DNA of 64,000 bases, taken from a phage. Below the pieces are notes generated by a model that searched no databases, was not told the DNA's origin, and was given only the letters and a program-made list of their open reading frames with translations. The translations under genes were made by a program, and so were the position numbers. Each line of letters starts with the position of its first letter. Position 1 is the first letter of the stretch. Shown one piece after another: positions 2,880 to 35,119 of the stretch. Location: the sequence record PZ242158.1; one strand, given 5' to 3'.

Positions 2880-5303
2880 ATGAGCATGTGGTCGTTCGAT
2901 TTTGAGTCATCCGGTTTGCTGGAAGACCCAGATCTTTATTATCACTGCGGCCTGTTTAAAGAGCTGAATAAGAACCGTTTTATGCTGTTCCTTCCTCTGA
3001 ATGACCGCACACACTACTCCGAGGAGGATATAGAGAAGGCCAAGAACTTTATTCTGGCAAAGAAAACTCTTTATAAGGATTTTGAAGTTCGCATAGCAGA
3101 TTTTTCGGAGTTGGAAGGTTGGCTTACAGGAAATTCCGACTGGTCACCAACAGCTTTGAACTGCCATAACTGCTACAGTTATGACTTTATGCTGATGGAG
3201 AGATTATCCGGTATTCATTTTGATATGTTCCGTGATCCTAAATGCATGGGGACTATCAACGACCACCAGGTTAACCTGTTTGATACGTTGGCTATGAGCC
3301 GAATCTTGTGGCCTGATCGCCCTTTACCAAAAGGTTGTCCGGACGCTGTATTCAACCCGGTTACTAAGAAAATGCAACCTGTTGGTCCTCACGGCCTTAT
3401 GGCATGGGGCTACGCCCTTGGTAACCAGAAAGTTCAAATTGATGACTGGCGCGATCTTCCGCTGTGGAAATATGTGGATCGTGTGTTCGAGGACGTTATC
3501 ATCCAGGAGTTGCTCTGGAAAGAGTTGGTAGCGGAATCAAAAGGTGTATTCTACGGCAAATCTGACATGCAGAACTTTATGTATGACCCTGCCAAAGAGA
3601 AGCCTAAAGGATTCAAGAAGATTACCTGGAAGAATGCATTACGCCGAGGCATGCTGCAGCATTTCCTGATGGAGCTGCAGGCTCGACAGGGTGTGTATTT
3701 CGACATAGATGGGGCTATTGCTTTACGTGACCGCTGCGATGCGTGGATGAAAGAGATCGCTGATCGTGTTGAACCACAACTTCCTTTAAAAGAGTTATCA
3801 ATGTCTCAGCGGCCTAAGTTCCCTGAAAAGCCGTTTAACCAGGATGGGACAATCTCCAATAATGGTTGGAAATGGTTAAAAGACAAGCTTGGCTACCCTG
3901 TGGACATGAGTGCTTTAGAATTCAAAGCTCCTCCTAAGCGAGCATTTACCTCCACAGGAGATGTCAGTAAGATGGGGATAAAATGGTGTGAAGAGATGGG
4001 CTGTAAAGACCCTGACAAGATGGCGGATTTCTTGAGGGGCTATATCAAGGGCACCTCCACACCACAACCTTTACCTAAAGAGCTAATGGATCAGGCAATA
4101 AGTGATCTACAGCAGAAGCGAATGCCTGACTGCAAGATACCTATGAAAATCAGTAATCAGGACGATATTAAGCGATACCTGATCAGTGCTGGTTGGCTTC
4201 CGACAATGTGGAGAACTAAGGATGTAACTAAAGACAGCAAGAAGAAAGCTCTACCTGATGCAGATGTTGATGCACGAGTGTATGCATATATGGACGAGCT
4301 TTTAGAGTCAGAGTATTGTGACCTAATTATCAACTTCTGGAACAAAACTGATGCTAAGTTCCAGACAACCGTGCACAAGTTCCGAAGCTTTCCTAACTCC
4401 GAAAGGATTAAAAAGGAAGTATTCGGGAAAATACGTAGAAAAGCTAGGGCACTTATTACTTCTCCGCAACTGAAAGATACGTTTGGACACCTATGCCCGA
4501 ATCTTGAAAAATTGAACGGAGAGATGGCTAAAGATATCGTCTTGTGGTTATCATTGCGAAACCGCAGATCGGTCCTTGATCCAATCAAGGAGGATAAGGT
4601 TGATACTGGTCTTCTTAATCACCCACGTTTGAAGATTGACCATAAGCTTCCTGCTAAAAGTTCTGGATTAACAAACACTTCCCGACAGAAACACAGTATT
4701 TGTGCAAACATGCCTAAACCATCTCCTAAAGTGGTTATGGGTAAAGAGATGCGTAGTCTGTGGGGTGTTCCTCCAGGATACTTTGAGATCGGTATTGACG
4801 GGTCCAACTTAGAGCAGCTTATCGGGGCTTGGGGTGCCTTTGAGTTCGACAACGGCCTGTATTACGATGTTGTAAGTAACGGGGACGCACACCAAAACAA
4901 TGCTGAGGCATATACAAAAGTAGCAGGTAGAGAGGTGTCTCGTAACGACGGTAAACCTATCACGTATGGGGTTATGTATGGGGCACAAAAAGATAAAGTT
5001 GCAGATATGCTGGACATCTCTCCAGAGTTGGGACAAAGGGTAATCGATGCACTCTGGGATGCCAACCCTGGTCTTAAGGGGCGTAAAGAAGATCTGGAGA
5101 AATTCTGGGAAGCAACGGGTAAGAAGTTTATCTACTCTTTTGATGGTCATGCTATCTGGACCCGATCTAAACACTCTTTACTTAATGCATACCAACAAAA
5201 TGGCGGCGCATCGTTGTGTGACTTAGTTGGGATACTCATGCACCATCAAATGGTGAAGCGTGGGTGGTACGATGAAGGTGTTCGTCGTATTATCTATTAC
5301 CAT
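2880..5303 (+). CDS. DNA polymerase, family A, exon 1
   Basis: AAGGAG RBS; exo motifs FDFESSG and HNCYSYD; motif B KPITYGVMYG; ORF stops one codon after the His where motif C (HDE) is expected. Confidence 0.8.
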
Positions 5304-6145
5304 AAATAACATTGTGGCTTCGTGCAGTGATGCACGTCGAAAACCTCTTTAATTGACGGGAAGGCTAAGTTGACTTTTACACCTAAACATGGTAAAAGCT
5401 CAATATGCTAATCCGCAGCGAAGACTAAAGGGGTGTAGTTAAAATGGCTAGATCAGTTGATTATCACGGATATACCGTGTTTGATGATGGAACAATACCT
5501 TTATCGAAACGTGATCATACAACAATGTTTTGTTTTGATAATGGTCGAGGTTACCTTTGCGTAACCATGTTCATCGAGGGGAAGCAGTGCACAAAAGGTG
5601 TCCACCACTTGGTTGCTGAATGCTTTGTATCAAACCCTGATCCTGAAAGGCTCACATGGGTGAACCATAAGGACGGAAACAAATACAACAATGCATACTG
5701 GAACCTTGAATGGACCACCCCTGGTGGAAATATCAAACACGCTTATGATAATGACCTCAGAGTAAGGCCAGTCGGTGAGTATAATGCCAACGCTGTACTG
5801 ACCGAGGATGAGGTAACGGAGATTTGCGAACTGTTACAGAGTGGTCTACGACAATGCGAGATTAGGGATCTTGGGTATCCTTATGAGACGGTCAGAGCCA
5901 TAAAGCAAAGAAGACAGTGGAAACATATCTCTAAAAACTACACCTGGTAGTAACGTTCAGAGACTATCGAAAGCATAGCGCCAACATAAATTGGTGCGAA
6001 GAAGCGAGTAGAGTAGGCCAGCAAGTGCGGTCGAAATGGGAGGTGCCTTGGTAACAAGGTAGTGAGATAGTCCGATCCATACAGGAAACTGTATGGCTGT
6101 GCACGTAATGGTGCGGGGTAGCTTAACGACCTACCTGAACTATTG
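5304..6145 (+). mobile_element. Group I intron in DNA polymerase gene, carrying an HNH homing endonuclease ORF
   Basis: 5' exon ends in U, intron ends in G; P-like AATTGACGGGAAGG (~5350), Q-like AATCCGCAGC (~5410), R-like GTTCAGAGACTA (~5955), S-like GAGATAGTCC (~6064); boundaries approximate. Confidence 0.7.
5444..5950 (+). CDS. HNH homing endonuclease (intron-encoded)
   Basis: HNH signature VNHKDGNKYNNAYWNLEW; C-terminal helix-turn-helix-like module; lies between Q and R elements of the intron. Confidence 0.8.
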   Translation: MARSVDYHGYTVFDDGTIPLSKRDHTTMFCFDNGRGYLCVTMFIEGKQCTKGVHHLVAECFVSNPDPERLTWVNHKDGNKYNNAYWNLEWTTPGGNIKHAYDNDLRVRPVGEYNANAVLTEDEVTEICELLQSGLRQCEIRDLGYPYETVRAIKQRRQWKHISKNYTW

Positions 6146-6499
6146 GATGAGTACCAACTTCAGGTCCCTGACACACCTAAGTATAAGACTGTGTACACCT
6201 TCGACACAATTGAAGAATTGGAAGCATTTAAGGCAGAGCAGGAGGCCAAACTTCATGTGTTCGACGGTCATAAGTACAAAAAGGCACGCAAGGATGAAAA
6301 CGGAAACGAAGTGGTTGACAGAGACGGAAACACGGTGTACGATCCTATCCTGAACGATGACGGAAAGCTTGAACTTATCTGGAGCCCTGTGGGTGAAATG
6401 GTGGTGCATTGCTTCTGGCAAGCTTCTAAAATGATGGGAGTCCCGTTCCAGATCACAGGTGAATACTTGTGTGGTCGTAACTGGGGTGATTGTCACTAA
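6146..6499 (+). CDS. DNA polymerase, family A, exon 2
   Basis: Begins DEYQLQV, completing motif C as YYH|DEY; ends GRNWGDCH, the canonical Pol A C-terminus; no RBS of its own; ORF-track start is a TTG at 6143. Confidence 0.7.
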   Translation, partial: DEYQLQVPDTPKYKTVYTFDTIEELEAFKAEQEAKLHVFDGHKYKKARKDENGNEVVDRDGNTVYDPILNDDGKLELIWSPVGEMVVHCFWQASKMMGVPFQITGEYLCGRNWGDCH

Positions 6500-6548
6500 T
6501 GTAAACTATCAACACATGGAAGTGTTGTTGAGCAAAGAGGAGACTTTT

Positions 6549-11604: not shown

Positions 11605-11633
11605 GCCCTGCCCGAAAGGGTGGGGCATTTTTG
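11605..11633 (+). terminator. rho-independent terminator
   Basis: GC stem GCCCTGCCC/GGGTGGGGC with GAAA loop followed by ATTTTT. Confidence 0.55.
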
Positions 11634-11651: not shown

Positions 11652-12068
11652 ATGACATTAGAAGATATCATTGTTAAACCTGAGAACTATGACCAATACA
11701 ACCTGTCAACTCAATCTGTAGACTTTGGATGCGCCACGGTCAGTGCGTGGCTGGTTAACGGAAAAGAGCTGGATAAATGCTTAGAAGCTCACATGTCTAT
11801 TAACAAGTTTCTGGATGAAAATACTCACTGGCTTGAGGGTGCAGGCGTATATGCTTCATGGTTGGAGAGTATGGGATTCGACTACCAATCTGAAGAGGGG
11901 TGGTGGAGCTATTTAGCTATCTGCCCAGAGACGCTGCAATGCTTCATGAAATATTCTGAAGATTTAGAGTATCGCGCTGTGGTTGACAGTGCTATTGCCC
12001 GTTATAGCCGTAAACCTTTTTCCCACGACATTAAAACTGTGGAAGAATTTGTTGAAGTTTTCTGTTGA
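11652..12068 (+). CDS. hypothetical protein
   Basis: AAGGAG RBS; no domain. Confidence 0.55.
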   Translation: MTLEDIIVKPENYDQYNLSTQSVDFGCATVSAWLVNGKELDKCLEAHMSINKFLDENTHWLEGAGVYASWLESMGFDYQSEEGWWSYLAICPETLQCFMKYSEDLEYRAVVDSAIARYSRKPFSHDIKTVEEFVEVFC

Positions 12069-12164
12069 CACAGGTTGAAAGGTGTGCAATTATAACTTCA
12101 TAGAACGGGAGGACGTGATGAACGAAGAAAACTGGGATGTATAACTAACAGGAGGCCACTGCCC

Positions 12165-12430: not shown

Positions 12431-12856
12431 ATGATCTATGAAATGCCAAAACTGATTCGTGATGATGCCCAAAACGCTCACACCATTATTATGGGCAAAC
12501 GTATGGATATTATTTGTCATAAAGATTTCTGGGAAGGAAGTTACTTCACAGAGTATTTTGGTAAACTGGACAATGGTCTGCTGATCCAGTTCTACACCGA
12601 TGCGGAAAACAACATTCACTGGGAGTTCGAAACTGAAGATATCCATAAACTTTTCACCTTCCTCGGTATTAAGGTTGAGGCCAAGTTTGAAGAAGGTGAG
12701 TGCGACGATTGTGGATTCTATGAGGTAACAGATTTCTACCTTCCAAGTGGTAAAAATCTCTACTACGAAAGCCACTTCGGCAACTCAAATATGCCACAGG
12801 GTTGGGATGAGTTTTTGGAAATTGCAGAAGAGGAGCTGGAATACCGTGATTATTGA
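12431..12856 (+). CDS. hypothetical protein
   Basis: GGAGA RBS; no domain. Confidence 0.55.
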   Translation: MIYEMPKLIRDDAQNAHTIIMGKRMDIICHKDFWEGSYFTEYFGKLDNGLLIQFYTDAENNIHWEFETEDIHKLFTFLGIKVEAKFEEGECDDCGFYEVTDFYLPSGKNLYYESHFGNSNMPQGWDEFLEIAEEELEYRDY

Positions 12857-13304
12857 TACTGTAAAGGGAGATCTAATCTCCATTTTCAAGAAAGGGTCAG
12901 GCCACATGATCCACGGTTGTAACTGCTTTCACACAATGGGTGCAGGTATAGCGAAAGATATTGCCCGTGAGTTCCCTCAAGCACTGGCAGCCGACAAAGA
13001 GACTGCTTATGGTAATCTAGACAAGCTGGGTATGTTTTCTTGTTGGGAGCATTTTGCCAAGGCCAGGGTCGTATATGGAATCAACCTGTATACCCAGTTC
13101 TACCCAGGGCCCAATGCTGAATACTTCTCAATCATGAAAGGTTTTGAGCGAGTCAACGAGGTATTCAAAGGTATGTCATTGCCGTTCTACATTCCTAAAA
13201 TCGGATGCGGTATTGGAGGTCTAAAGTGGAAACATGTAGAAGATGTAATTAATCTTGCAACCACAGATATTGATGTGGTTGTAGTAGAGTACAAAAAGTG
13301 TTGA
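12846..13304 (+). CDS. macrodomain protein (TARG1/DarG-like ADP-ribose hydrolase fold)
   Basis: KGDLISI...HGCNCFHTMGAGIAKDIA matches the TARG1-type HCxS/N...MGAGIA motif; start taken as GTG after GGAG (track ORF begins 12747). Confidence 0.6.
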   Translation: MIIDTVKGDLISIFKKGSGHMIHGCNCFHTMGAGIAKDIAREFPQALAADKETAYGNLDKLGMFSCWEHFAKARVVYGINLYTQFYPGPNAEYFSIMKGFERVNEVFKGMSLPFYIPKIGCGIGGLKWKHVEDVINLATTDIDVVVVEYKKC

Positions 13305-13329: not shown

Positions 13330-13555
13330 TTCCACAACAACTAAGAGAGGAGAGCACTGTGGAGACTAAAATCTTAATTCTTGCTGTGGTAGATACAACC
13401 GAAGGAGCTATATTCGAATCTGCAGGAGGGTATTTCTACCTACCATACGGAAAAAGAACTTCCGAGCCAAGTAAAGATTCAATCCTCAAAGTGTTCCCGT
13501 GTGCTTTCTGGCTGGAGATTTTGGTATAAGATTGCAGATGATTTGGGAGAGAATT

Positions 13556-13750
13556 ATGAGAAACAAGAAAGAACTTTACTCTGGTGAGTGGATCAACGAT
13601 CAACAGGTGGGAGAGGTAACCTGCTTCCGATGTTTTACCAGGTACAATCTTAAAACTGCACCAAAAAGTGTTCCAAAGACTGATGGTTATTATATAAAAG
13701 AACCTCATTGCCCAAAATGTAAATGCCGATTGTACTGGAGCAATCTGTAA
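13556..13750 (+). CDS. small zinc-ribbon protein
   Basis: Internal Met after GGGAGAG RBS; CFRC...CPKCKC motif. Confidence 0.5.
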   Translation: MRNKKELYSGEWINDQQVGEVTCFRCFTRYNLKTAPKSVPKTDGYYIKEPHCPKCKCRLYWSNL

Positions 13751-13754
13751 GAGG

Positions 13755-13782
13755 TTGACATCTGAAAACTGCAGTGTATAAT
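13755..13782 (+). promoter_or_regulatory. sigma70-like promoter
   Basis: TTGACA, 16 bp, TATAAT. Confidence 0.5.
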
Positions 13783-13813
13783 ATACGCATAAACTAACAG
13801 AGAGCGATGTATT

Positions 13814-14005
13814 ATGGTAATTTTTAACCGAGATGGTATCATAGTTAGACAGCACCCGTTCCTTGAATACTATCAAATTGAGCAATGGTGCTACGGGGAT
13901 TGCAGTCACTCCTATGGGCAAAGTTGGGGATACCGTACAGTTTTTGAATCCACAGACCTTGACAAAGTAAGACAGAAAGTTTTAGAACTTATTAACAACA
14001 AGTGA
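13814..14005 (+). CDS. hypothetical protein
   Basis: Short ORF downstream of promoter; no domain. Confidence 0.4.
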   Translation: MVIFNRDGIIVRQHPFLEYYQIEQWCYGDCSHSYGQSWGYRTVFESTDLDKVRQKVLELINNK

Positions 14006-14012
14006 GTATGAT

Positions 14013-14348
14013 ATGGTAACATTGGAAAGACGTAAAGCTATCGCCGCCACACTGGCAGACATCTTTTGGGATTGCAATTTAAAAGATACCCGATATTGTG
14101 GCGCATCTGTAGATGCATTATTCCCACGGCCCACTATTGTTGCAATGGGAAACCTGTCAAACGTGGTGTATGGAGCATGGGACAAAGAAGGTGGATTTTA
14201 TATCTGGCAACCTGACTACGGGACCTGGAAAGAGGTAAGGGGTGCGGATGACTTTGGGCCTGCAGTTGCCAAAACGATGGATGGCTGGCAAATTTATGTT
14301 GGAAATGACATGAAGCTGAAAGGCGAGATTGTTTACTGGTTACCTTAA
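14013..14348 (+). CDS. hypothetical protein
   Basis: ORF in early array; no domain. Confidence 0.5.
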   Translation: MVTLERRKAIAATLADIFWDCNLKDTRYCGASVDALFPRPTIVAMGNLSNVVYGAWDKEGGFYIWQPDYGTWKEVRGADDFGPAVAKTMDGWQIYVGNDMKLKGEIVYWLP

Positions 14349-26259: not shown

Positions 26260-26859
26260 GTCTGCTCTTCCTCCCTACCATAAACGGCCCTACCTGGCAA
26301 GTGGAATAATTGACGAGCCATCAATCCCACACACTGTACAAATATACATGTAAAATAACTATTGCATAACCTTTCATTGTGTGGTAGCGGTGCTATTTTT
26401 ACCCGTTTTCCTTCCAAAATTGCACGTAATGCAGCTATTGCACAAAATTTAACCTGATGCGCATCTTCAATATCTTGTCAACAACTAAAAATCTTTATAA
26501 GTCATACACTTACACAAACCAAAAAGCGTGTTCTACGTGAAAAATCGAGTATAACTATAGCCGACAGATCTCAGAATTTACGTACGCTCACCATTCTATA
26601 GCCTGCTAAGTATTTATTCCGACCATAGAATAACAGAATAGTCAATACCTGCATAAAATAATTATTCGTTTAAATTGCATAACATAAATCAGCTCAGGTG
26701 TCAACATTTTTCGTAAACAGTCTGAAATTGTCACGGCAAGTTATCATAATCAGAGAAATCTTTAGTCGTCTAATGTTTACTGTACGTTACTATACTAACT
26801 GGAATCATTAGATGACTAATAGAAAGATAAGAAATAATTAACAATACAATTATTTTATC

Positions 26860-27045
26860 TGTAACAATAAGGCAACTATGCAAACGAATGGCATGGCGCG
26901 ACGGAGTCGCGACATAATATAAAAGCAGTAACCATCACCCCCGTGATAGTTTGTCTGCAATCTATTAATCAGATCATAGTTGCCTTGTATTTAGTTAATC
27001 ATGACATAACAAGCAAGGCAACTATAGATCTTCTAATAGTTGCCC
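26860..27045. repeat. iteron-like cluster (AGGCAACTAT / ATAGTTGCC in both orientations)
   Basis: At least four copies within ~180 bp plus duplicated ATGCAAACGAATGGCATGGC and palindrome CGCGACGGAGTCGCG in an AT-rich ORF-poor region. Confidence 0.5.
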
Positions 27046-27284
27046 TGCTTTTATATTATGTCATATATTATTAACTTGTTAATTGTTAGTCAGTCAAATC
27101 AACAGCGTTATCATTTCAGTCTTTATTGTTGTTGATCGTTATTGTTATCATGCAAACGAATGGCATGGCTTATCATCTCTGTATAAACAGTTTATGCGTG
27201 AACAGTGAGGCATGCAATAGTAACAATTGTTATTGTGTCATCATGTCAAGGGTAAAGTGTCATAGTATGTCAGACATGTTTTTC

Positions 27285-28277
27285 CCCTCTTTGTCAAGTG
27301 CTGCATGAAAAAATTTACAAGCTGGTATGGTAGCATTTTTGCGGCCTTGTTTACATTCAGGAGTGTATGTATAATCCTTGTTGTGTGGGCGTTTATACGT
27401 CTGGACGGTCAGAAGTCTGCAGGTTAATATCTAATCTATTGGCTGCTAACTATATCCCACACAAATGATAAGAAATATAATTGTTATATGCGTAAACTGT
27501 AACTCATGTTATCAATCCCTGTATGTATCGCCAGTGGTGCGCATAATGGGTATTATGTTAAATTGCCCGTAATGATAACAGTTCTCACAATGATAGGTAT
27601 TCTCATTCATCCACACAAAATAGGTTGCAAATGTTGTGCCACTGTGTGAACGGCCTGGCCTATTAATTTCTCTCACTGCCTCGATATTTGAGAATTGTTA
27701 TAAGAATGAGAAGTATCCATGTTTATATTACATCTACTTGGTTCAGAACCAAAATGCGCGAAAGCGTTTCACGATAACTAGCGACCACGGTCTGTTCCCT
27801 GGCGGCCATACGGCTTCTACTGAACGCAGCAGAGGGCGATAATCCCCTCTTTGTCAAGTGCTGCATGAAAAAATTTACAAGCTGGTATGGTAGCATTTTT
27901 GCGGCCTTGTTTACATTCAGGAGTGTATGTATAATCCTTGTTGTGTGGGCGTTTATACGTCTGGACGGTCAGAAGTCTGCAGGTTAATATCTAATCTATT
28001 GGCTGCTAACTATATCCCACACAAATGATAAGAAATATAATTGTTATATGCGTAAACTGTAACTCATGTTATCAATCCCTGTATGTATCGCCAGTGGTGC
28101 GCATAATGGGTATTATGTTAAATTGCCCGTAATGATAACAGTTCTCACAATGATAGGTATTCTCATTCATCCACACAAAATAGGTTGCAAATGTTGTGCC
28201 ACTGTGTGAACGGCCTGGCCTATTAATTTCTCTCACTGCCTCGATATTTGAGAATTGTTATAAGAATGAGAAGTATT
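27285..28277. repeat. tandem direct repeat: two near-identical ~430-bp copies (about 27285-27717 and 27845-28277) separated by ~128 bp
   Basis: Long stretches read identically at a ~560-bp offset; each copy contains promoter-like TTGTTT-17-TATAAT. Confidence 0.7.
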
Positions 28278-28410
28278 CCCATTCCGTCCGCCTGGCAGCG
28301 CTCCTGTAGGTCCTGCAAGGACTCTAGCTTTCAGCTAGACCCTTCGGGCCTCCCTACAGGTCAGGTCAAAATCGTGGTAGAATTGGGCCTATTCAGATAT
28401 TTCTGGCTGA

Positions 28411-28952
28411 CTCTTCAGGTCTGTGTGGGAAAAGCCAACCTCTCCGGCGGGGCAGGGGGAGGTCAATTAAAAAATTTACGTGGTGTATGAAGCGCTCTTC
28501 AGGTAAGGCAGGTATTATGGGATGAAACCCTCTTCAGGCAATGATATTTGTGGGTGTGATATTTGCTGGAAAGCCAGATATGACGGGACTCCCGGCGGGG
28601 CAGGGGTAGTACAGACAGGGAAAATATGAGAATGTAGTTGGGGAAATTGATCAGACAGGTAGAGTATGGAATATGTTACAAGTATGTTAAATATGGAGGT
28701 TGAATATCTGTAGGATTTGTGTGTAAAATCAAAGACTTAAGGGGTGTTGTGATATTTTCTATAAATAATTCAAGTTTAATAGGTGATATTTGTCTCTATC
28801 CGCTTTGTGTGGTAAACAGATTCAGATGAGATTGGTTTACAAGTGTATACATAATATACAAATTAAAGATACAAGAAACCCCCCATCCCCCTTCGGCTAC
28901 CATTCACCTTTTCCTCTGACTGGTACTTAAACACTTATTCAGACTCTTCAGG
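28411..28952. repeat. cluster of CTCTTCAGG boxes (4 copies; a 5th near 29594) and duplicated CCGGCGGGGCAGGGG
   Basis: 9-mer recurs at ~28411, 28495, 28530, 28944 within non-coding DNA; also long inverted repeat CCTGTAGG...CCTACAGG at ~28300-28360. Confidence 0.5.
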
Positions 28953-29304
28953 TTATCACCCATATATCATATGGCAGTGACTGGTGTCCTCCGGCCCCTC
29001 TTTCGTCACCCGTCCGCTTCGCCATGCTAATGCCATAGCCAATGGTTCGGTTGTTCACCCTGTTCACTCAGGTGTATCTCCATACCCCTTCAAACCGAAG
29101 AGAACAGAAAACCCGAATTACTCGGTAAAAGAAAAGAGAAGAACTTAATTTTATCAGGATAGGCAAGAATGTCAAGGCATGACTGCTCACTAAACAAGCA
29201 AACAGTCATGTGTGGGAGGTAAGTGATTGTGGTGGTGGGAAATTTAGTTGAAAGATGTGTTATAGGTGCGCTTCCAGCACTTTAGCCGGGCAGCTAATTG
29301 TGTG

Positions 29305-34801: not shown

Positions 34802-35119
34802 TCATTCTCTAAAGTCAATCTTTACTTTGCCTTTCCCCTTACCTTTCTTTCCACCGCATTTAGCCAGTTGACGTGCTGCAACATCTACCATACGGTCAGT
34901 TGCCTCGTAAGCATCACTGCCTTTAGCTTTGGCAATAACTTCTTTTCCAGAATTGTCAAAAATGAACGCCATAACTTCCTGGTGATCATTTTCAACTTTT
35001 ACACTCACACGTGCATAGTTGGCAGAGGGATGCAAACGCTCCAGCTTAGACATTTTGTGGGAAATGAAAGACACCATACCTTCAGTGATTTCTACGTTGC
35101 CAGTGATTTCAATTTGCAT
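34802..35119 (-). CDS. hpf: ribosome hibernation promoting factor homolog (HPF/RaiA family)
   Basis: MQIEITGNVEITE...KLERL...VSVKVE...GKEVIAKAKGSDAYEATDRMVDVAARQLAK aligns along its length with E. coli HPF/RaiA; Lys/Gly-rich C-terminal extension. Confidence 0.8.
   Translation of the reverse strand: MQIEITGNVEITEGMVSFISHKMSKLERLHPSANYARVSVKVENDHQEVMAFIFDNSGKEVIAKAKGSDAYEATDRMVDVAARQLAKCGGKKGKGKGKVKIDFRE

What the first reader, a model, noticed from the sequence alone, without database searches (positions are those of the whole stretch)
12846..13304. TARG1/DarG-like macrodomain protein in the early region: candidate counter to host ADP-ribosylation defence
The motif HGCNCFHTMGAGIAKDIA preceded by KGDLISI matches the TARG1/DarG-type macrodomain (HCxS...MGAGIA), which hydrolyses ADP-ribose from macromolecules. 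DarT toxins ADP-ribosylate ssDNA during phage infection and DarG reverses this, so a phage-borne DarG-like macrodomain could be an anti-DarTG factor or counter other ADP-ribose-based defences. This is inference from fold-level motifs only.
Basis: inference. Interest (0 to 1): 0.7.

Follow-up and report, generated by a model that had tools for sequence, protein, structure and literature searches.

The report
Phage macrodomain, T4 AdfM homologue

Summary
Window 12846-13304 (+) is a real 152-aa gene with a GTG start, a conserved Shine-Dalgarno site and dN/dS of 0.08-0.24. It carries the quoted motifs.

It is a macrodomain: Pfam Macro scores above its threshold, and the alignment-based AlphaFold model has pLDDT 95.8. 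The best matches among solved structures are all ALC1/TARG1-class enzymes: Poa1p, TARG1, DarG, BT1257 and SCO6735.

The window comes from a Vequintavirus (rV5-like E. coli phage), where this gene has long been annotated "tk.4 / phosphatase / macro domain". It is 39% identical over its full length to T4 Tk.4 (E 1e-43). It is 67.5% identical to the gene in the tk.4 slot of a Krischvirus.

T4 Tk.4 was named AdfM in a 2025 preprint because T4 lacking it becomes sensitive to DarTG2. A chimallivirus macrodomain, also called AdfM, removes DarT2 ADP-ribose from DNA.

One refinement: the catalytic lysine of DarG and TARG1 is replaced here by an invariant glutamine (Q84), paired with N26. SCO6735 has the same arrangement and is a proven hydrolase of thymidine-linked ADP-ribose on DNA.

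The protein is an orphan. It has no DarT-binding domain and no neighbouring toxin gene.

Verdict: a probable anti-DarTG2 orphan antitoxin, a new member of a known kind, with no direct test yet in this phage group.

The parts
12846..13304 (+). CDS of the 152-aa stand-alone macrodomain protein (GTG start, TGA stop); orthologue of rV5 gp204 'tk.4' and homologue of T4 Tk.4/AdfM
12830..12835 (+). Shine-Dalgarno GAGGAG, 10 nt before the GTG, lying inside the 3' end of the upstream ORF (which stops at 12854-12856); this suggests translational coupling
   Evidence: conserved in 5 Vequintavirus genomes
12921..12923 (+). Codon of Asn26 (HGCN26CF); it aligns with SCO6735 Asn27 and with the Asn of M. tuberculosis DarG, and PMC13309987 names the corresponding T. 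aquaticus DarG residue as Asn22; invariant in 100/100 family members
   Evidence: roles of the equivalent residues from PMC9411070 and PMC13309987
12936..12953 (+). M31-G-A-G-I-A36, the glycine-rich loop 1 shared with TARG1 (RMGAGIA) and DarG (VMGKGIA)
13083..13097 (+). N80-L-Y-T-Q84 at the end of a beta-strand. Gln84 occupies the position of the catalytic Lys of TARG1 (K84) and DarG (K80) and of the essential Gln85 of SCO6735. N80, Y82, T83 and Q84 are invariant in the family
13194..13220 (+). P117-K-I-G-C-G-I-G-G125, the glycine-rich loop 2. Gly124 sits where TARG1 has the catalytic Asp125
12431..12856 (+). Upstream ORF (141 aa, PHROG 8157, unknown function, no Pfam match) whose stop overlaps the macrodomain start; same transcription unit
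12065..12093 (+). Nearest upstream sigma-70-like site with 10 of 12 matches and a TG motif (TTGACA-17-AATTAT); candidate promoter of the unit; consensus match only
11605..11626 (+). Terminator-like hairpin (9 pairs, 7 G-C, T-run) after the endonuclease VII gene; probable upstream boundary of the unit
13755..13782 (+). Perfect sigma-70 consensus (TTGACA-16-TATAAT) downstream; in rV5 a sigma-70-type promoter (P205) is annotated just upstream of the orthologue of the next window gene (13814-14005); starts the next unit of small genes

Best explanation
The gene encodes an orphan, antitoxin-like ADP-ribosyl-DNA glycohydrolase of the phage Tk.4/AdfM family.

Proposed mechanism: it is made from a block of small non-structural genes that carry host-type promoters. 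It binds ADP-ribose through its two glycine-rich loops. It hydrolyses the ADP-ribose that DarT2-type toxins attach to thymidines in single-stranded phage DNA, so that replication can go on in hosts carrying DarTG2. Catalysis is predicted to follow the SCO6735 scheme rather than the DarG/TARG1 scheme: Gln84, held by Asn26, positions the distal ribose and an activated water does the chemistry, instead of a catalytic lysine.

Shown here: the gene is real, the fold is a macrodomain, its class is ALC1/TARG1-like, the conserved residues are as listed, and it is homologous to T4 Tk.4.

Inferred: enzymatic activity, the substrate (thymidine-linked ADP-ribose on DNA), the target system (DarTG2) and early expression.
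For: Macro domain above the Pfam threshold. AlphaFold model with pLDDT 95.8. Foldseek matches at probability 1.0 to TARG1 (TM 0.78-0.79), Taq and Mtb DarG (0.75-0.77), Poa1p, BT1257 and SCO6735. DarG models of PADLOC and NCBIfam match residues 4-149 at E 1e-12 and 5e-12.

Full-length homology to T4 Tk.4: 39% identity, E 1e-43, identical core motifs HGCNCFHTMG.G.A and NLYTQF.PGPN. Both fall in PHROG 335 over the same profile region. The gene in the vs-tk slot of Krischvirus JK32 is 67.5% identical.

T4 lacking tk.4 becomes sensitive to DarTG2 (10.1101/2025.11.20.689424). The chimallivirus AdfM removes DarT2 ADP-ribose from DNA (PMC13309987).

N26 and Q84 are invariant in 100 homologues. They align with SCO6735 Asn27 and Gln85. 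Mutating either residue abolishes or nearly abolishes thymidine-ADPr hydrolysis, and SCO6735 rescues E. coli from DarT (PMC9411070).

The gene is under purifying selection (dN/dS 0.08-0.24).
Against: No experiment exists for any Vequintavirus copy. The Bas54 transposon library in the same preprint was not reported on a DarTG2 host.

Identity to T4 Tk.4 is only 39%. The T4 evidence is genetic and from a preprint, and no biochemistry has been published for the Gln-type phage proteins.

The DarG/TARG1 catalytic Lys is absent. The long, lysine-bearing mobile loop that SCO6735 uses for DNA binding is 5-6 residues shorter here.

The profile scores against SCO6735, BT1257, DarG, TARG1 and Poa1p are nearly equal (48.6-59 bits), so sequence alone does not fix the substrate.

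A bacterial homologue (Pelagimonas) sits in a housekeeping context without DarT, so members of the family need not be tied to DarT.
Confidence: 0.7

Rival explanations
1. It is a small-molecule ADP-ribose enzyme, as the old 'phosphatase / Poa1p-like / A1pp' annotation implies. It would dephosphorylate ADP-ribose-1''-phosphate or deacetylate O-acetyl-ADP-ribose as part of NAD or nucleotide salvage during infection.
For: Yeast Poa1p is among the best sequence and fold matches. The stretch IH(G/S)CNC is shared with Poa1p, and the Poa1p residues mutated in PDB entries 6lfs and 6lft (H23, S30) align with H23 and T30 here. PHROG 335 and many GenBank records call the family 'phosphatase'.
Against: The 'phosphatase' label was passed on from early macrodomain work and was never tested for the phage proteins. 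Many macrodomains show weak activity of this kind in vitro. At the Gln84 position Poa1p has Ser (alignment). No Tpt1-type, sirtuin or NAD-salvage gene was detected among 57 larger ORFs of the window. The only phenotype known for a family member is DarTG2 sensitivity.
Confidence: 0.08
2. It reverses ADP-ribosylation of proteins or RNA rather than of DNA. For example, it could undo host ADP-ribosyltransferase defences that modify phage proteins or mRNA. Alternatively it could have a broad range that includes DNA.
For: TARG1 and SCO6735, its relatives, both de-modify proteins as well as DNA (PMC9411070). An RNA-ADP-ribosylating defence system is mentioned as a possible further target of phage counter-defences in PMC11825919. 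The family is very widespread (2825 phage records), including hosts where DarTG2 has not been reported as a major defence.
Against: The Lys/Asp dyad that TARG1 uses on glutamate esters is absent (Q84, G124). The T4 screen on DarTG2 gave tk.4 as the single hit. Nothing in the window points to a protein or RNA ADP-ribosyltransferase partner.
Confidence: 0.15
3. It neutralises DarT mainly by binding it or its product (stoichiometric inhibition), with hydrolysis dispensable.
For: Catalytically dead SCO6735 (Q85A) still inhibits DarT in vitro, more strongly than dead DarG or TARG1 (PMC9411070). The phage factor AdfB acts through direct interaction with DarT (PMC11481870).
Against: Strict invariance of N26, Q84 and both glycine loops in 100 homologues from very different phages fits a conserved active site better than an interface with fast-evolving toxins. 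The protein lacks the DarT-binding C-terminal domain of DarG.
Confidence: 0.05

Closest known systems
T4 Tk.4 = AdfM (anti-DarT factor macrodomain), Tevenvirinae; PHROG 335
   Same: Same length (152 vs 155 aa). 39% identity end to end, E 1e-43. Same core motifs including Asn and the NLYTQ glutamine. Same PHROG. Stand-alone gene inside a block of small non-structural genes, with its start overlapping the upstream stop.
   Different: Different phage subfamily (Vequintavirinae) and different neighbours (not between vs and tk). No experimental test. It is closer (67.5%) to the Krischvirus version than to T4's, which suggests exchange between these phage groups.
SCO6735 of Streptomyces coelicolor (PDB 5E3B) and BT1257 of Bacteroides (2FG1): orphan Gln-type ALC1-like macrodomains
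   Same: Best profile and HH matches (E 3e-14 to 1e-16). The Asn27/Gln85 pair is conserved as N26/Q84. Orphan, with no adjacent DarT. SCO6735 hydrolyses thymidine-linked ADP-ribose on DNA and rescues cells from DarT.
   Different: About 21-28% identity. The loop after the Gln is 5-6 residues shorter and lacks SCO6735's Lys89/Lys94. Val25 is Gly24 here. These are bacterial genome-maintenance proteins, not phage counter-defence proteins.
DarG2 antitoxin of DarTG2 (T. aquaticus 5M31/5M3E, M. tuberculosis 5M3I)
   Same: Same fold (TM 0.75-0.77). The Asn and both glycine loops are conserved. The DarG models match the whole protein at E about 1e-12.
   Different: Only the macro half is present (152 aa against a 338-position model; 45.7 bits against a cutoff of 250). 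The catalytic Lys80 is Gln. No DarT partner gene.
Chimallivirus AdfM (PhiKZ gp104 and relatives) and Kuravirus macrodomains
   Same: Phage-borne stand-alone macrodomains of the same class. PhiKZ AdfM is shown to remove DarT2 ADP-ribose from DNA.
   Different: These are of the DarG-proximal 'FPTK' lysine type (37-42% identical to Mtb DarG, against about 28% for a Vequintavirus homologue, phage APECc02) and about 19-22% identical to the window protein. They are probably a separate acquisition.
Human TARG1/OARD1 (4J5S)
   Same: The highest TM-scores of all solved structures (0.78-0.79).
   Different: The catalytic dyad Lys84/Asp125 is Gln84/Gly124 here. TARG1 has Ser where this protein has Asn26.

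Membership tests
Macro domain superfamily (Pfam PF01661) | Score at or above the Pfam gathering threshold over the whole domain | tested here: met
   25.5 bits against a cutoff of 22; residues 22-134 cover model positions 1-117 of 118
Macro domain superfamily (Pfam PF01661) | Three-layer alpha/beta/alpha macro fold | tested here: met
   AlphaFold2 model with a 100-sequence alignment has pLDDT 95.8 and pTM 0.90. Foldseek finds 178 PDB chains at E <= 0.001; the listed matches are macrodomains, or serine hydrolases designed or evolved from such a fold
ALC1/TARG1-like macrodomain class (TARG1, DarG, Poa1p, SCO6735, BT1257) | Closest solved relatives by sequence, profile and fold all belong to this class, ahead of MacroD and viral nsP3 types | tested here: met
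   Profile E 5e-15 to 2e-9 for members of the class, against 0.016 or worse for coronavirus and alphavirus macrodomains. Foldseek ranks 1-17 and 19, 21-23 are chains of this class
Phage AdfM / Tk.4 family (PHROG 335) | Full-length homology to T4 Tk.4 and shared family model | tested here: met
   39% identity over 150 of 152 residues, E 1e-43. PHROG 335 at E 2.5e-59 and 1.3e-65 over the same profile positions 54-205. 67.5% identity to the Krischvirus gene in the vs-tk slot
Phage AdfM / Tk.4 family (PHROG 335) | Required for, or sufficient for, phage growth on a DarTG2 host | not testable with these tools
   Shown only for T4. The Vequintavirinae library (Bas54) was not reported on DarTG2
DarG antitoxin (NCBIfam NF048014 equivalog) | Score at or above the curated cutoff | tested here: not met
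   45.7 bits against a cutoff of 250; only model positions 2-144 of 338 are matched
DarG antitoxin (NCBIfam NF048014 equivalog) | C-terminal DarT-binding domain | tested here: not met
   The protein ends at residue 152, directly after the macro fold
DarG antitoxin (NCBIfam NF048014 equivalog) | Catalytic lysine (T. aquaticus Lys80) | tested here: not met
   Gln84 aligns with the Lys of Mtb DarG 'FPTK' in the HMM, HH and MAFFT alignments
DarG antitoxin (NCBIfam NF048014 equivalog) | Adjacent darT toxin gene | tested here: not met
   The neighbours are small phage genes of unknown function (PHROG). The Pfam scan of 32 smaller ORFs, which covered five of the eight flanking ORFs (11652-12068, 12431-12856, 14013-14348 among them), returned only four families, none of them DarT
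TARG1/OARD1 | Lys84/Asp125 catalytic dyad | tested here: not met
   Gln84 and Gly124 at the aligned positions
SCO6735-type (Gln) orphan macrodomain | Gln85 and Asn27 equivalents | tested here: met
   Q84 and N26 align with them in hmmsearch and hhalign, and both are invariant in 100 homologues. Roles from PMC9411070
SCO6735-type (Gln) orphan macrodomain | Extended mobile loop with Lys89/Lys94, and Val25 | tested here: not met
   SCO6735 and BT1257 carry a 5-6-residue insertion after the Gln relative to the phage family. Gly24 replaces Val25
Poa1p (ADP-ribose-1''-phosphate phosphatase) | Phosphatase activity on ADP-ribose-1''-phosphate | not testable with these tools
   Similarity only (profile E 6.6e-13, Foldseek E 9e-10). 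Ser in Poa1p at the Gln84 position

The most novel reading that the evidence does not exclude
The Gln-type Tk.4/AdfM proteins, including this one, are a lineage separate from the Lys-type DarG-like phage macrodomains. They would use the water-mediated SCO6735 mechanism and, like SCO6735, act on more than one class of substrate (thymidine-ADPr DNA plus ADP-ribosylated protein or RNA). That would make them broad erasers of host ADP-ribosylation defences rather than specific anti-DarTG2 factors.
Probability: 0.2. Interest if true: 0.55.

Novelty: new member of a known kind. Interest (0 to 1): 0.3.

Why it matters
It assigns a probable function to a gene that most Vequintavirinae records still call "hypothetical protein"; this phage group is used in therapy cocktails and in O157 typing. 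It predicts that rV5-like phages resist DarTG2 because of this gene.

It also shows that two chemically different macrodomain solutions, Gln-type and Lys-type, are both carried by phages. The first description of T4 AdfM says nothing about the catalytic residue in the passages read; it only compares the protein with Mtb DarG.

The general idea of orphan antitoxin-like erasers in phages is already established for NADAR (AdfN) and for macrodomains (AdfM).

Tried and rejected
A single-sequence AlphaFold run gave a useless model (pLDDT 35). It was replaced by the alignment-based model.

Pairwise phmmer and MAFFT did not place the SCO6735 and BT1257 Gln opposite Q84, because of the loop insertion. 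I relied on hmmsearch and hhalign, which agree with each other and with the strand end in the model.

I looked for a partner NADAR, ADP-ribosyltransferase, DarT or NAD-salvage gene among 57 larger ORFs of the window. None was found.

I looked for a second macrodomain copy in the window and found none.

I checked whether a bacterial homologue sits next to DarT. It does not: the Pelagimonas copy is in a housekeeping context.

The Poa1p structure paper and the original DarTG phage-defence paper are not held in the library. The Poa1p residue roles, and the DarTG2 sensitivity of Vequintavirinae, could therefore not be checked.

I considered calling the protein 'DarG-like' or 'TARG1-like'. I rejected both as membership claims because the defining catalytic residues and the domain architecture are not met.

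Full report
**1. The observation**

The + strand from 12846 to 13304 is an open frame of 152 codons ending in TGA.

The start is GTG at 12846. It is preceded by GAGGAG at 12830-12835 and overlaps the stop (12854-12856) of the upstream ORF. The longer mechanical ORF from 12747 is not the gene, for three reasons:
- rV5, WalterGehring, nomine and LL12 all annotate the same 459-bp CDS, and the same GTG and Shine-Dalgarno site are present upstream in all four.
- The Krischvirus homologue begins with ATG at the equivalent residue.
- T4 Tk.4 aligns from its first residue.

Pairwise Nei-Gojobori estimates among five Vequintavirus orthologues give dN/dS of 0.08-0.24, with dS up to 1.28. The frame is therefore under purifying selection.

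**2. Where the window comes from**

The region is 95-97% identical at the DNA level to many rV5-like E. coli phages (Vequintavirus): MaxBurger, WalterGehring, rV5 itself and others. The protein is 98.7-99% identical to bas59_0089 of phage EduardKellenberger.

The records name the gene in several ways: 'tk.4: phosphatase', 'macro domain protein', 'Poa1p-like family protein', or, most often, 'hypothetical protein'.

The gene lies in a run of roughly fifty small + strand genes. This run follows a Dcm-like methyltransferase, the primase/helicase and the DNA polymerase. Sigma-70-like promoter sites are scattered through it, and promoters are annotated in the corresponding region of rV5. The layout fits an early or host-takeover region, but I could not test timing.

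**3. What the protein is**

Family and fold:
- Pfam Macro scores above its gathering threshold.
- PHROG 335 matches at E 2.5e-59.
- The DarG models of PADLOC and NCBIfam match residues 4-149 at about 1e-12. The NCBIfam score is 45.7 bits against a cutoff of 250, and only the macro half of the model is matched.
- A 100-sequence alignment of homologues (A1) gave an AlphaFold model with pLDDT 95.8.
- The top Foldseek matches in the PDB are Poa1p, TARG1 (TM 0.78-0.79), T. aquaticus and M. tuberculosis DarG (0.75-0.77), BT1257, the Thermosipho DarTG fusion and SCO6735. Viral nsP3-type macrodomains rank behind them.
- A profile search of PDB sequences gives the same set at E 5e-15 to 2e-9, and 0.016 or worse for other macrodomain classes.

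The protein is therefore a stand-alone macrodomain of the ALC1/TARG1-like class.

**4. Active site**

In A1 the invariant residues are G24, N26, C27, M31, G34, A36, D50, N80, Y82, T83, Q84, P117, G120 and G122.

hmmsearch and hhalign agree on three equivalences:
- N26 aligns with the Asn of DarG and with SCO6735 Asn27. TARG1 has Ser there.
- Q84 aligns with the Gln of SCO6735 (Gln85) and BT1257, and with the catalytic Lys of DarG ('FPTK') and of TARG1 (Lys84).
- TARG1 Asp125 corresponds to Gly124.

In the model, Q84 ends a beta-strand. It is therefore the phage counterpart of the residue at the end of 'ITK' in TARG1 and 'PTK' in DarG.

PMC9411070 shows four relevant things about SCO6735:
- It lacks the Lys and Asp residues.
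- It needs Gln85, and Asn27 to hold Gln85 in place.
- It removes thymidine-linked ADP-ribose from DNA more efficiently than DarG or TARG1.
- It rescues E. coli from DarT.

The paper also states that this Gln distinguishes SCO6735 and ALC1 homologues from TARG1 and DarG homologues.

The phage family is thus Gln-type. It lacks the 5-6-residue extension of the following loop, with its lysines, that SCO6735 uses for DNA binding.

**5. Link to an experimentally studied phage protein**

The protein is 39% identical to T4 Tk.4 over its whole length (E 1e-43). The two share the motifs HGCNCFHTMG.G.A, NLYTQF.PGPN and P(K/R)IG.GIG, and both match the same part of PHROG 335.

A Krischvirus (RB49-like phage JK32) carries a copy that is 67.5% identical, in the position between vs and tk where T4 has tk.4. 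This ties the Vequintavirus gene to the tk.4 locus. Together with several rV5 neighbours annotated as RB49-like, it suggests gene exchange between the two phage groups.

The HIDEN-SEQ preprint (10.1101/2025.11.20.689424) found tk.4 as the single significant hit when a T4 transposon library was grown on a DarTG2 host. It confirmed that a clean deletion sensitises T4 to DarTG2, and it named the gene adfM.

Independently, PMC13309987 named a chimallivirus macrodomain AdfM. That work showed the protein removes DarT2 ADP-ribose from DNA and protects PhiKZ from DarTG2. Its active-site residues are given as N23 and K78.

I confirmed that a PhiKZ-like protein and a Kuravirus protein have 'FPTK' where the window protein has 'LYTQ'. 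I also found that Mtb DarG is 37-42% identical to those proteins but only about 28% identical to Vequintavirus and T4-like proteins.

Phages therefore carry at least two lineages of DarG-class macrodomains, a Lys-type and a Gln-type. The window protein belongs to the Gln-type lineage that includes T4 AdfM.

**6. Mechanism proposed**

The protein binds the ADP-ribose moiety with loops G32-G34 and G120-G125. Q84, locked by N26, positions the distal ribose. It hydrolyses the thymidine-ADP-ribose bond made by DarT2 on single-stranded phage DNA. This restores replication and, depending on the phage, transcription or packaging.

The fold, the residues and the homology are shown here. The activity, the substrate and the target system are inferred from T4 AdfM, chimallivirus AdfM and SCO6735. 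I put 0.7 on this explanation.

The rivals are:
- a small-molecule ADP-ribose-1''-phosphate phosphatase or O-acetyl-ADP-ribose deacetylase, as in the historical annotation (0.08);
- reversal of protein or RNA ADP-ribosylation, or a broad substrate range (0.15);
- inhibition of DarT by binding only (0.05).

**7. Context checks**

- No second macrodomain is present in the window.
- Pfam scans of 57 larger ORFs found no NADAR, ADP-ribosyltransferase, DarT or NAD-salvage domain. The NADAR AdfN reported for Bas60-62 (PMC11825919) was therefore not detected in this window.
- The eight flanking ORFs match PHROGs of unknown function, apart from an endonuclease VII-like homing endonuclease.
- A bacterial homologue in Pelagimonas is an orphan among housekeeping genes. 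SCO6735 is likewise described in PMC9411070 as protecting against DarT without being part of a DarTG pair.

**8. Novelty and verdict**

The gene has been visible as 'tk.4-like macro domain' in rV5 since its first annotation. The anti-DarTG2 role of the family was published in 2025-2026.

Two points remain open. The Vequintavirinae copy is untested. The Gln-type active site of the T4/rV5 lineage is not mentioned in the passages of the T4 paper that I read.

I rate this a new member of a known kind, with interest 0.3.

Noticed in passing
window 34802-35119 (-): A 105-aa ORF matches Pfam Ribosomal_S30AE (sigma-54 modulation / ribosome hibernation factor) at E 1.8e-12. A phage-encoded ribosome hibernation factor homologue sits among small genes of unknown function.
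   Followed up: partly
window about 26420-29300: A stretch of roughly 2.9 kb with no convincing ORF lies between the + strand and - strand gene arrays. It corresponds to the gap between bas51_0133 and bas51_0134 in WalterGehring. It also corresponds to the ~2 kb intergenic region of Bas54 in which the HIDEN-SEQ authors saw no transposon insertions. It may be an origin or a regulatory hub.
   Followed up: no
window 2880-6500 (+), with 5444-5950: The DNA polymerase gene appears split by an inserted homing-endonuclease ORF. WalterGehring annotates a two-piece joined polymerase with an endonuclease inside it, and rV5 annotates two 'DNA polymerase' CDSs. The window lacks the additional endonuclease gene that WalterGehring has in front of the polymerase.
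   Followed up: no
window 13359-14005, compared with L002 8360-9185 and L003 13993-14639: The small genes just downstream of the macrodomain gene differ between close relatives. rV5 has three small genes here plus a 195-bp RB49-like gene. The window lacks that 195-bp gene, and WalterGehring lacks the 213-bp one. This is a small variable cassette next to the putative anti-defence gene.
   Followed up: partly
L006 (Shigella phage JK32, Krischvirus) 3001-3456: The Krischvirus Tk.4 is 67.5% identical to the Vequintavirus protein but only about 40% identical to T4 Tk.4. Several rV5 neighbours are annotated as RB49-like. This is evidence of horizontal exchange of small accessory genes between Straboviridae and Vequintavirinae.
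   Followed up: partly
window 12431-12856 (+): The upstream 141-aa ORF (PHROG 8157, no Pfam match) is probably translationally coupled to the macrodomain gene, with an 11-nt overlap. rV5 annotates it as similar to an RB49 protein. Whether it cooperates with the macrodomain is unknown.
   Followed up: no
one search hit list: Sixteen records labelled 'Campylobacter phage' with host C. jejuni (for example MG065655.1, 140 kb) are about 95% identical to this E. coli Vequintavirus region. The host labels of those records look doubtful.
   Followed up: no
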